A stretch of 64,000 bases of DNA from the human T2T-CHM13v2.0 reference genome, Homo sapiens (GCA_009914755.4 CP086569.2:17088001-17152000), one strand, 5' to 3'; shown: positions 59,411 through 61,115, counted from the first letter of the stretch. The notes: generated by a model from the letters alone, not told the origin. A program made the numbers and translations.

Positions 59411-59698
59411 GGGGCCAGGCGTGGTGGCTCATGCCTATAATCCCAGCAATTTGGGAGGATGAGGTGGGCAGATCACTTGAGATCAGGAGTTTGAGAACAG
59501 CCTGGCCCTGTCAGTACTGCAAATACAAAAAATAGCTGGGGAAGTATTATGGTGGGCACTTGTAATCCCAGCTATTTGGGAGGCTGAGGCAGAAGAATTG
59601 CTTGAGCCAGGGAGGGGGAGGTTGAAGTGAGCCGAGATCTCGCCATTGCACTCCAGCCCAGGCGACAAAATGAGACTCTGTCTAAAAAAAAAAAAAAA
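59411..59698 (+). mobile_element. Alu SINE (copy a), plus orientation, with diagnostic variants
   Basis: ggggccaggcgtggtggctcatgcctataatcccagcaatttgggaggatgaggtgggcagatcacttgagatcaggagtttgagaacagcctggccc...ggttgaagtgagccgagatctcgccattgcactccagcccaggcgacaaaatgagactctgtctaaaaaaaaaaaaaaa. Confidence 0.9.
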
Positions 59699-59935
59699 TA
59701 CATACATGTATATGTGTGCGTATATACACATATACACACACATATATAGTCTATAGGTCTAAATATGTGTGTGTATATATGTGTGTATATATATATATAT
59801 AAATATATGTATATATTTAGACAGTATATATAGTATATATTTATGTGTGTGTGTATATATAGATACACACACGTATATATATGTGTGTGTGTATCTATAT
59901 ATACACACACACATATATATAGAGAGAGAGAGACA
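59699..59935. repeat. Compound TA/TG/CA microsatellite, about 237 bp, grown from the Alu(a) tail
   Basis: tacatacatgtatatgtgtgcgtatatacacatatacacacacatatatag...gtgtgtgtatatatgtgtgtatatatatatatataaatatatgtatatattt...tatctatatatacacacacacatatatatagagagagagag. ORFs 59572-59958(-), 59759-59983(-) and 59769-59954(+) are translations of this low-complexity DNA. Confidence 0.9.
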
Positions 59936-60046
59936 GAAAATGACAATCTCTTGACCATTTTTTTCTCTGCAATATGCCACCAATCACAAAAGGAAAATTA
60001 GGTCTTGAGTAAGGCTCACTTTAGAAATGATGTTACTCTTGGCAAG

Positions 60047-60353
60047 TTGTGGTGGCTCATGTCTGTAATCCCAGCACTTTGGGAGGATGAGGTGGGCAGA
60101 TGACTCAAGATCAGGAGTTTGAGAACAGCCTGACCCTCTACTACAAATACAAAAAAAAAAACCAAAAACAAAAAACAAAAAGCTGGGGGAGCGTTATGGT
60201 GTGAGCTTGTAATCCCAGCTATTTGAAAGACTGAGGCAGAGGAATTGCTGGAGCTGTGGAGGTAGAAGTTGAAGTGAGCCAAGATTGCTCCATTGTACTC
60301 CAGCCTAGGTGACAAAATGAGACTCTGTCTAAATAAATACATAAATAAATAAG
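60047..60353 (+). mobile_element. Alu SINE (copy b), 5' junction like copy c and body like copy a
   Basis: ttgtggtggctcatgtctgtaatcccagcactttgggaggatgaggtgggcagatgactcaagatcaggagtttgagaacagcctgaccc...gaagttgaagtgagccaagattgctccattgtactccagcctaggtgacaaaatgagactctgtctaaataaatacataaataaataag. Shares gatgaggtgggcagat, tgagaacagcctg, gttgaagtgagcc and gacaaaatgagactc with copy a. It begins at the same gtggtggctca position, after the same 113-bp flank, as copy c. Confidence 0.85.
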
Positions 60354-60470
60354 AAGTCAGAAAACGGCAATCTCTTGACCATTTTTTTTTCTGGAATATG
60401 CCACTAATTAGAAAAGGAAAATTGGGTCTTGAGTAAGGCTCACTTTAGGAATGATGTTACTCTTGGCAAG

Positions 60471-60750
60471 GTGTGGTGGCTCACGCCTGTAATCCCAGCA
60501 CTTTGGGAGGCGGAGGCTAGAGAATGGTTTAAGGCCAAGAGTTCAAGACCTGCCTAGGAAACACAGAAAGCACCAATGTCTATAAAGGATTTTCAAAGTT
60601 TAGGTGAGTGGGGTGGTGCATGCCTGTAGTTCCAGTACTTGGGAGGCTGAGGCAGGTGAATTGCTTGAGCCCAGGAGGTTGAGGCTTCAGTGAGCTATCA
60701 TCATACTACTGCACTCCAGCCTGGGTGACAGAGCAAGACCATGTCTTGAA
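60471..60750 (+). mobile_element. Alu SINE (copy c), plus orientation, 5'-truncated by about 10 nt, whose tail has grown into (GAAA)n
   Basis: gtgtggtggctcacgcctgtaatcccagcactttgggaggcggaggctagagaatggtttaaggccaagagttcaagacctgcc...cactccagcctgggtgacagagcaagaccatgtcttgaaag. Confidence 0.85.
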
Positions 60751-60759
60751 AGTAAGGGA

Positions 60760-61115
60760 AAGCGAGGGGTAAGTAGTGGAAGGGAGGAGGAGGAAAGGGG
60801 GGGAGAGAGAGAGAGAGAAAGAAAGAAAGAAATAGAAAGAAAGAAAGAAAGAAAGAAAGAAAGAAAGAAAGAAAGAAAGAAAGAAAGAAAGAAAGAAAAG
60901 AAAGAAAGAAAGAAAGGAAAGAAAGAAAGAAAGAAAGAAAGAAAGAAAGAAAGAAAGAAAGAAAGAAACAGAGAAAGAAAGAAAGAAAGAGAAAGAAAGA
61001 AAGAAAGAAAGAAAGAAAGAAAGAAAGAAAGAAAAAGAAAAGAAAGAGGAAGAAAGAAAGAAAGAAAAAGAGAAAGAAAGGAGGGAGGGAGGGAAGGAAA
61101 GAAGGAAGGAGAGAT
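60760..61115. repeat. GA-rich tract with a long (GAAA)n core, about 270 bp at 60808-61080
   Basis: ggaggaggaaagggggggagagagagagagagaaagaaagaaagaaatagaaagaaagaaag... with scattered interruptions (aaaag, ggaaag, aacagag, agag). ORF 60706-61152(-), 148 aa of SFFLSFFL..., is its translation. Confidence 0.95.

What the first reader, a model, noticed from the sequence alone, without database searches (positions are those of the whole stretch)
59411..60765. Tandem duplication in which the middle Alu looks like a hybrid of the two flanking Alus, suggesting unequal Alu-Alu recombination
Seen directly: the layout is Alu(a) 59411-59698, a 237-bp TA/TG/CA tail, a 113-bp unique flank 59934-60046, Alu(b) 60047-60353, a second copy of the same 113-bp flank 60357-60470 (about 92% identical, including cagaaaa[tg/cg]caatctcttgaccattttttt and gtcttgagtaaggctcacttta), then Alu(c) 60471-60750. 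Alu(b) and Alu(c) both start at the identical truncated position (gtggtggctca) right after the flank. From about position 40 onward, Alu(b) carries the private variants of Alu(a): ggaggatgaggtgggcagat, tgagaacagcctg, tatggtg, gttgaagtgagcc, gacaaaatgagactc. Alu(c) instead has ggaggcggaggctagag.... Inference: non-allelic homologous recombination between Alu(c) on one chromatid and Alu(a) on the other, with crossover in the first 40 bp. That would generate the hybrid Alu(b) and duplicate the intervening roughly 640-bp unit. Divergence between the copies, about 8-10%, indicates an old event.
Basis: partly seen in the sequence, partly recalled or inferred. Interest (0 to 1): 0.55.

Follow-up and report, generated by a model that had tools for sequence, protein, structure and literature searches.

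The report
Old Alu-Alu tandem duplication, hybrid Alu
Two neighbouring Alu repeats in a primate genome once paired out of register and duplicated the roughly 420 bases between them, leaving a hybrid Alu at the joint; this is a clear but ordinary example of a well-known kind of rearrangement.

Summary

**Layout**
- Alu(a): 59413-59698, AluS-like.
- TA/TG/CA array of 235 bp.
- Flank F1: 59934-60040.
- Alu(b): 60041-60331, plus a 26-nt tail.
- Flank F2: 60358-60464.
- Alu(c): 60465-60747, AluJ-like, with a tail that has grown into about 300 bp of (GAAA)n.

**Evidence**
- F1 and F2 are 98/107 identical with no gaps, and occur nowhere else in the window.
- Alu(b) matches Alu(c) through the flank and Alu positions 1-8.
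- From position 47 onward Alu(b) matches Alu(a): 40 discriminating sites against 7. It shares 12 rare non-CpG variants and a roughly 15-bp deletion seen in none of 17 other Alus in the window.
- Alu(c)'s target-site duplication TGATGTTACT lies before (b), before (c) and after (c)'s tail. Alu(b) has no pair of its own.
- The joint falls in Alu positions 9-46, which contains the published Alu recombination hotspot (24-45).

**Corrections**
- (b) and (c) are full length, not truncated.
- The flank is 107 bp, not 113.
- (a) and (b) differ by 14%.

**Limits:** unequal crossover cannot be told apart from replication template switching, and no orthologous locus could be obtained. This is a known kind of event, neutral as far as can be seen, and of low interest.

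The parts
59413..59698 (+). Alu(a): full-length AluS-like element, the left parent. The body runs 59413-59684 and the A15 tail to 59698. It has a ~15-bp deletion in the left arm (consensus ~96-110).
   Evidence: Alignment to consensus, 14.8% from AluSx against 18.9% from AluJo. The deletion is shared only with Alu(b) among 20 Alus in the window.
59699..59933 (.). Compound TA/TG/CA microsatellite grown from Alu(a)'s tail. It contains an 86-nt near-perfect palindrome at 59836-59921. Its counterpart in copy 2 is only 26 nt.
   Evidence: (I7). The DNA hairpin folds at -34.1 kcal/mol, z=-8.2.
59934..60040 (+). F1: unique flank, copy 1 (107 bp). Its end carries a copy of Alu(c)'s 5' target-site duplication, TGATGTTACT, at 60028-60037.
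   Evidence: 98/107 identity to F2 with no gaps. No other copy in the window.
60041..60357 (+). Alu(b): full-length hybrid Alu at the duplication joint. The body runs 60041-60331 and the tail AATAAATACATAAATAAATAAGAAGT to 60357. The A-rich linker is about 23 nt longer than in (a).
   Evidence: Positions 1-8 plus the flank are c-like; positions 47-282 are a-like, with 40 ab|c sites against 7 bc|a. Its nearest neighbour among all window Alus is (c) for positions 1-46 and (a) for 47-282. It has no target-site duplication pair of its own.
60049..60086 (+). Interval within Alu(b) (Alu positions 9-46) that must contain the exchange point.
   Evidence: The last c-specific site is position 8 and the first non-CpG a-specific site is position 47. 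Maximum chi-square places the break between positions 37 and 47. The interval contains the published hotspot TGTAATCCCAGCACTTTGGGAGG.
60358..60464 (+). F2: unique flank, copy 2 (107 bp). Alu(c)'s 5' target-site duplication, TGATGTTACT, lies at 60452-60461.
60465..61110 (+). Alu(c): full-length AluJ-like element, the right parent. The body runs 60465-60747. Its degenerate tail has expanded into an array of about 300 bp of (GAAA)n, 60804-61110.
   Evidence: 19.9% from AluJo against 23.1% from AluSx, and it carries AluJ diagnostic bases. TRF reports period 4 with 68 copies.
61117..61126 (+). 3' target-site duplication of Alu(c), TGATGTTACT, followed by TT.
   Evidence: A 10-nt exact match to 60452-60461; 16 of 5000 shuffles reach this score.

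Best explanation
The ancestral arrangement was Alu(a) [AluS] - A-rich tail - 107-bp unique segment F - Alu(c) [AluJ], with both Alus in the same orientation and only about 130-150 bp apart.

A homology-guided, out-of-register exchange then joined the first 9-46 bases of Alu(c) on one template to the matching position of Alu(a) on the other. This duplicated the intervening unit in tandem: the rest of Alu(a), its tail, F, and the start of Alu(c), about 420 bp at the time. It left the hybrid Alu(b) at the joint.

Afterwards the copies diverged (8% in F, 14% in the Alu). The tail of copy 1 grew into a 235-bp TA/TG/CA array, the linker of Alu(b) lengthened, and Alu(c)'s tail became a (GAAA)n array.

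- Shown: the hybrid structure, the duplicated flank, the target-site duplication pattern of Alu(c), and the exchange interval.
- Inferred: the molecular route (unequal sister-chromatid or meiotic crossover, or replication template switching), the age (roughly 20-45 Myr under standard primate substitution rates), and the absence of any function.
For: - F1/F2 identity is 98/107, gap-free, and F is unique in the window.
- In-register sliding identity switches from c-like to a-like within Alu positions ~9-46.
- Discriminating sites: at positions <=37, 4 are b=c and 1 is b=a (a CpG site). At positions >=47, 40 are b=a and 7 are b=c, of which 5 are at CpG positions and 1 more is a change private to (a). 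Fisher p=0.005. Maximum chi-square on Alu-internal sites alone is reached by 590 of 20000 permutations.
- (a) and (b) share 18 derived substitutions. Twelve of these are non-CpG and rare (0-4 of 17 other Alus). No other Alu carries more than 6 of the 18, and (c) carries none. The ~15-bp deletion is found only in (a) and (b).
- Alu(c)'s target-site duplication TGATGTTACT lies before (b), before (c) and after (c)'s tail. Alu(b) has no matching pair.
- Alu(b)'s tail shares AAATACATA with (a)'s tail and nothing with (c)'s.
- Literature: a chimeric full-length Alu at the joint is the signature of Alu/Alu-mediated rearrangement (PMC6071635). The hotspot lies at Alu positions 24-45 (PMC2041999). Alu-mediated duplications occur in human genomes (PMC9675761).
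Against: - No outgroup or orthologous sequence could be obtained, so the single-copy ancestral state is inferred, not seen.
- Alu(a)'s own target-site duplication could not be recovered. The prediction that (a)'s 3' target-site duplication follows both tails is therefore untested (the candidates do not exceed chance).
- Inside the Alu, only two shared-derived sites (positions 4 and 8) tie (b) to (c). The case for the c-derived 5' end rests mainly on the flank.
- Alu(b) shares G62 and A67 with (c) inside the a-derived part. This could be parallel change or a small later conversion.
- (a)/(b) divergence (14%) is higher than F1/F2 (8.4%), though not significantly (p=0.21). Faster CpG decay in Alus would explain it.
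Confidence: 0.9

Rival explanations
1. The structural outcome is the same, but the route was a replication-based template switch (MMBIR/FoSTeS) or break repair (SSA/MMEJ) using the Alu 5' homology, rather than a classical unequal crossover (NAHR). This rival concerns the mechanism only and is compatible with the structure described above.
For: Published work argues that a single Alu is shorter than the homology usually needed for NAHR, and that template switching or MMEJ also yields intact chimeric Alus (PMC6071635). The two parental Alus were only ~130-150 bp apart and belong to different subfamilies. They are about 80% identical now, which favours short-homology routes.
Against: Nothing in a fixed, old product separates the routes. 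There are no inserted bases and no template-switch scars at the joint, though 8-14% later divergence would hide small ones.
Confidence: 0.35
2. Two steps: first a tandem duplication of [F + Alu(c)], then gene conversion of the upstream Alu copy by Alu(a) from about position 47 to its 3' end.
For: This would also give a c-like 5' end and an a-like body. Alu-to-Alu conversion is a known process. The b=c bases at positions 62 and 67 show that small patches of mixed ancestry are possible.
Against: It needs two events where one suffices. Alu(b)'s tail is a-like, not c-like, and no copy of (c)'s 3' target-site duplication or GA-rich tail follows (b). The conversion tract would therefore have to run out of the Alu into non-homologous tail sequence. 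The copy-2 unit begins exactly where a single Alu-Alu exchange predicts.
Confidence: 0.05
3. Three independent Alu insertions, with the similarity of F1 and F2 and the (a)/(b) likeness due to chance or a shared source gene.
For: Alus are very numerous, and closely related source genes can share variants.
Against: - F1 and F2 are 91.6% identical over 107 gap-free bases of non-Alu sequence that is unique in the window.
- The F-Alu junction is identical in both copies, including (c)'s target-site duplication.
- (a) and (b) share 12 rare non-CpG variants plus a deletion absent from 17 other Alus.
- Alu(b) has no target-site duplication of its own.
Confidence: 0.01
4. An assembly artefact: a falsely expanded repeat.
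For: Tandem repeats next to microsatellites are prone to misassembly.
Against: The copies differ by 8-14%, with distinct indels and different tails. An artefactual duplicate would be near-identical.
Confidence: 0.01

Closest known systems
[quoted passage not shown]
   Same: It shows two direct-orientation parental Alus and a full-length in-register chimeric Alu at the joint. The chimera lacks its own target-site duplication pair. The joint lies in the conserved 5' block that includes the published hotspot at positions 24-45 (PMC2041999, PMC6071635, PMC9675761).
   Different: Most catalogued cases are deletions, recent, and kilobases long. Here the product is a very small duplication (~0.42 kb unit), old (8-14% diverged), and formed between Alus of different subfamilies (AluJ x AluS) that lay only ~130-150 bp apart.
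Alu-to-Alu gene conversion
   Same: It also produces mosaic Alus with blocks of different ancestry.
   Different: Conversion does not change copy number or duplicate flanking unique sequence. Here the flank and the tail are duplicated as well.
Microsatellite birth from Alu poly(A) tails and linkers (established knowledge, not tested against the literature here)
   Same: Alu(a)'s tail gave rise to a TA/TG/CA array, Alu(c)'s tail to (GAAA)n, and Alu(b)'s linker to (A5C)n.
   Different: The duplication supplies an internal control. The same ancestral tail is 26 nt in copy 2 and 235 bp in copy 1.

Membership tests
Alu/Alu-mediated tandem duplication (AAMR) | Two parental Alus in the same orientation bracket the duplicated segment | tested here: met
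   Alu(a) at 59413 (+) and Alu(c) at 60465 (+), both full length.
Alu/Alu-mediated tandem duplication (AAMR) | A full-length, in-register chimeric Alu at the joint, with its 5' part from the downstream parent and its 3' part from the upstream parent | tested here: met
   Site table and sliding identity. Nearest-neighbour test among 20 Alus.
Alu/Alu-mediated tandem duplication (AAMR) | The unique sequence between the parents is present twice, collinear with the Alu junctions | tested here: met
   F1/F2 98/107, gap-free; unique in the window.
Alu/Alu-mediated tandem duplication (AAMR) | The chimeric Alu has no target-site duplication pair of its own. It is flanked by the 5' target-site duplication of one parent and the 3' target-site duplication of the other | tested here: inconclusive
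   The 5' side is met: (c)'s TGATGTTACT precedes (b), and (b) has no pair of its own. The 3' side is open, because (a)'s target-site duplication is not recoverable above chance.
Alu/Alu-mediated tandem duplication (AAMR) | The joint lies within a stretch of identity shared by the parents | tested here: met
   The interval is positions 9-46. Apart from one CpG site and two changes private to (a), the parents are identical there. It contains the hotspot at positions 24-45.
Alu/Alu-mediated tandem duplication (AAMR) | A single-copy pre-duplication state at the orthologous locus of an outgroup | not testable with these tools
   No primate genomes are available. Scans of metagenome, prokaryote-genome and viral contigs gave nothing or only 21-33-nt chance matches. 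The exact-ORF look-up found nothing.
Alu SINE (dimeric, 7SL-derived, primate) | About 280 bp, two arms joined by an A-rich linker, an A-rich tail, flanked by target-site duplications | tested here: met
A target-site duplication is shown for (c) only. Rfam has no hit at gathering threshold, which is uninformative for Alus.
Segmental duplication (conventional definition: at least 1 kb and at least 90% identity; from established knowledge) | Length at least 1 kb and identity at least 90% | tested here: not met
   The units are 628 and 424 bp, with identity 86% (Alu) to 92% (flank).
Alu gene conversion only | Mosaic ancestry confined to the Alu, with no change in copy number of the flanking sequence | tested here: not met
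   The flank and tail are duplicated too.

The most novel reading that the evidence does not exclude
The locus may still be structurally unstable. It has three direct Alus within 1.3 kb, an 86-nt near-perfect AT-rich palindrome, and a 300-bp (GAAA)n array. These could sustain recurrent Alu-Alu deletions and duplications or array-length polymorphism in living populations. The two copies of one ancestral Alu tail (26 nt against 235 bp) would then be a dated natural experiment on how a compound microsatellite is born.
Probability: 0.2. Interest if true: 0.25.

Novelty: already known. Interest (0 to 1): 0.12.

Why it matters
It matters little beyond being a clean worked example. Alu-Alu exchanges are a well-documented source of deletions and duplications in primate genomes, and this one shows all the expected marks. 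If orthologues were compared, the event could serve as a rare-genomic-change marker for a primate clade. The paired tails would also give a time-stamped view of microsatellite growth. There is no sign of a gene, a regulatory element or any function affected.

Tried and rejected
1. Orthologue or contaminant search. F-derived 21-24-mers were scanned against metagenome contigs, genome contigs and viral contigs. The only result was four 21-33-nt chance matches.
2. Exact look-up of the 108-aa ORF spanning Alu(b) and the F1 junction in public assemblies. It is not on record. A homology search with Alu-derived peptides was not run, because it would return Alu ORFs from everywhere.
3. Target-site duplication of Alu(a). 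The candidates (GAAGT-AG / GAAGTCAG; AGAAA) do not exceed shuffled controls, so they were dropped.
4. MAFFT five-way alignment. It misaligned Alu(b)'s expanded linker and was replaced by pairwise and consensus-projected alignments.
5. Rfam scan of the whole window: no hit at gathering threshold.
6. The idea that F is itself a dispersed repeat was rejected: there is no other copy in the window.
7. Independent insertions, an assembly artefact, and duplication followed by conversion were considered and set aside (see the rival explanations).

Full report
**Observation**

Reading 58900-61300 shows the described layout. I projected each Alu onto AluSx and AluJo consensus sequences. The coordinates are:

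| Element | Coordinates | Notes |
|---|---|---|
| Alu(a) | body 59413-59684, A15 tail to 59698 | AluS-like |
| TA/TG/CA array | 59699-59933 | compound microsatellite |
| F1 | 59934-60040 | unique flank, copy 1 |
| Alu(b) | body 60041-60331, 26-nt tail to 60357 | hybrid |
| F2 | 60358-60464 | unique flank, copy 2 |
| Alu(c) | body 60465-60747 | AluJ-like |

F1 and F2 are 98/107 identical with no gaps. By blastn, F has no other copy in the 64-kb window, so it is not a dispersed repeat. The repeat finder independently reports the 424-bp and 628/647-bp spacings.

- Alu(b) and Alu(c) are not truncated.
- The flank is 107 bp rather than 113.
- (a) and (b) differ by 14%, not 8-10%.

**Is Alu(b) a hybrid?**

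In the gap-free parts of the three-way alignment (Alu positions 1-93 and 156-282) I classified every site where the three differ.

- Up to position 37, four sites group (b) with (c): positions 4, 8, 25 and 37. One site, a CpG at position 20, groups (b) with (a).
- From position 47 on, 40 sites group (b) with (a) and 7 with (c). Of those 7, five are at CpG positions and one more is a change private to (a).
- Fisher p=0.005.
- A maximum chi-square scan on Alu-internal sites alone places the break between positions 37 and 47. It is matched by 590 of 20000 permutations.

The flank makes the case decisive. In register, the 107 bases upstream of (b) are 91.6% identical to those upstream of (c) and 35.5% identical to those upstream of (a). 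The 30-nt sliding identity of (b) against (c) falls from at least 0.9 to 0.57-0.70 beyond about position 44. Against (a) it stays at 0.90-0.93 from position 14 on.

**Are the (a)/(b) shared variants truly private?**

Because my consensus sequences came from memory, I used 17 other near-full-length Alus in the window as an internal control.

- Of the 18 derived bases shared by (a) and (b), six are CpG-decay sites that 7-10 of the other Alus also carry. These are uninformative.
- The other twelve (positions 47, 70, 85, 158, 173, 191, 223, 244, 258, 266, 268, 282) occur in 0-4 of the 17.
- No other Alu has more than 6 of the 18, and Alu(c) has none.
- A ~15-bp deletion in the left arm (consensus about 96-110) is found only in (a) and (b).
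- Among all window Alus, the nearest neighbour of (b) is (c) for positions 1-46 (93.5%) and (a) for positions 47-282 (85.8%, with the next best at 72%).

Alu(a) is closer to AluS and Alu(c) to AluJ, so the two parents belong to different subfamilies.

**Target-site duplications**

Alu(c)'s 5' flank ends ...AATGATGTTACTCTT. The 10-mer TGATGTTACT recurs at 61117-61126, just beyond the (GAAA)n array that (c)'s tail has become. Only 16 of 5000 shuffles reach this score. The same 10-mer precedes Alu(b) at 60028-60037, as part of F1.

Alu(b) has no matching pair of its own. Its 5' flank does not recur after its tail above chance. Alu(a)'s target-site duplication could not be recovered, because its candidates do not exceed shuffled controls. 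That half of the prediction stays open.

Alu(b)'s tail (AAATAAATACATAAATAAATAAG) shares AAATACATA with (a)'s tail (A15TACATACATG...). It shares nothing with (c)'s GA-rich tail.

**Mechanism**

The simplest history is a single event. Ancestrally the order was Alu(a) - tail - F - Alu(c). An out-of-register, homology-guided exchange joined Alu(c) to Alu(a) somewhere in Alu positions 9-46. This duplicated the unit between the two exchange points and created the hybrid Alu(b).

The two a-private bases in the interval (positions 25 and 37) are what about 5-7% of later change in 38 bp would produce. They therefore do not narrow the interval. If the shared T at CpG position 20 is by descent, the joint lies in positions 9-19.

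The interval contains TGTAATCCCAGCACTTTGGGAGG, the Alu recombination hotspot at positions 24-45 reported for 663 chimpanzee and 492 human Alu-mediated deletions (PMC2041999). A full-length chimeric Alu at the joint is the recognised signature of Alu/Alu-mediated rearrangement. The literature attributes such products to template switching/MMBIR, SSA or MMEJ as well as to unequal crossover (PMC6071635). An old, fixed product cannot separate these routes. Alu-mediated duplications, though rarer than deletions in catalogues, are documented in human genomes (PMC9675761).

**Age (inference)**

- F1/F2 differ by 8.4% (Jukes-Cantor 0.089).
- The a-derived part of (a)/(b) differs by 14.0%.
- The difference between these is not significant (p=0.21), and faster CpG decay in Alus would explain it.
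- At 1.0-2.2e-9 substitutions per site per year, the flank value gives roughly 20-45 Myr.
- The twelve rare shared variants suggest that Alu(a) had already aged appreciably before the event.
- The species is unknown. Alus mark it as a primate (established knowledge).

**After the event**

The same ancestral tail is 26 nt in copy 2 and 235 bp in copy 1. In copy 1 it includes an 86-nt near-perfect palindrome. Alu(b)'s linker gained about 23 nt. The units now measure 628 and 424 bp.

**Rivals**

- Duplication of [F + Alu(c)] followed by conversion from Alu(a) needs two events. It also needs a conversion tract that runs into the non-homologous tail, and it predicts c-like sequence after (b), which is absent.
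- Independent insertions are excluded by the flank identity, the shared deletion and the missing target-site duplication.
- An assembly artefact is excluded by the 8-14% divergence between copies.

**What could not be done**

No primate genomes are available through these tools. Scans of metagenome, prokaryote-genome and viral contig collections with F-derived words found nothing homologous. An exact look-up of the ORF across the F1/Alu(b) junction also found nothing. The outgroup test remains the decisive missing step.

**Verdict**

This is an ordinary, apparently neutral example of a thoroughly documented class of rearrangement, so I score it low for interest.

Noticed in passing
window 59836-59921: An 86-nt near-perfect palindrome lies inside the TA/TG/CA array (43-nt arms, 93% complementary, no spacer). 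As single-stranded DNA it folds into a hairpin of -34.1 kcal/mol, z=-8.2 against shuffles. AT-rich palindromes of this kind can be unstable.
   Followed up: partly
window 60804-61110: About 300 bp of (GAAA)n, 68 copies, derived from Alu(c)'s tail. Alu(c)'s 3' target-site duplication lies just beyond it.
   Followed up: partly
window 60144-60181: The A-rich linker of Alu(b) has expanded by about 23 nt relative to Alu(a), into an (A5C)-like short repeat.
   Followed up: partly
window 60102 and 60107 (Alu(b) positions 62 and 67): Alu(b) shares G62 and A67 with Alu(c) inside the otherwise a-derived part. This is either parallel change or a short later conversion patch.
   Followed up: no
window 36764-40457 (- strand): A LINE-1 element with long ORF2 fragments. 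One of 477 aa matches human L1 ORF2p residues 754-1230 (999 bits). Reverse transcriptase and endonuclease domains are also present.
   Followed up: partly
window 18949-19791 (+ strand): Two adjacent ORFs carry a reverse-transcriptase domain (RVT_1; the second contains a DDLLLA motif). This is probably a decayed endogenous retrovirus pol gene.
   Followed up: partly
whole window: About 20 Alus, all old and CpG-decayed (65-85% identical to the consensus) and none young. The window is 37% G+C.
   Followed up: partly
window 45323-45643: An AT-rich tandem repeat with a 112-bp period, 2.9 copies, 75% matches.
   Followed up: no
window 58900-59250: The sequence upstream of Alu(a) resembles a MaLR/MLT1-type LTR. 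This is from memory only; no repeat library was available to test it.
   Followed up: no
window 61539-61623: A short Alu right-arm fragment (consensus 183-267, + strand) lies downstream of the cluster. It is not part of the duplication.
   Followed up: no
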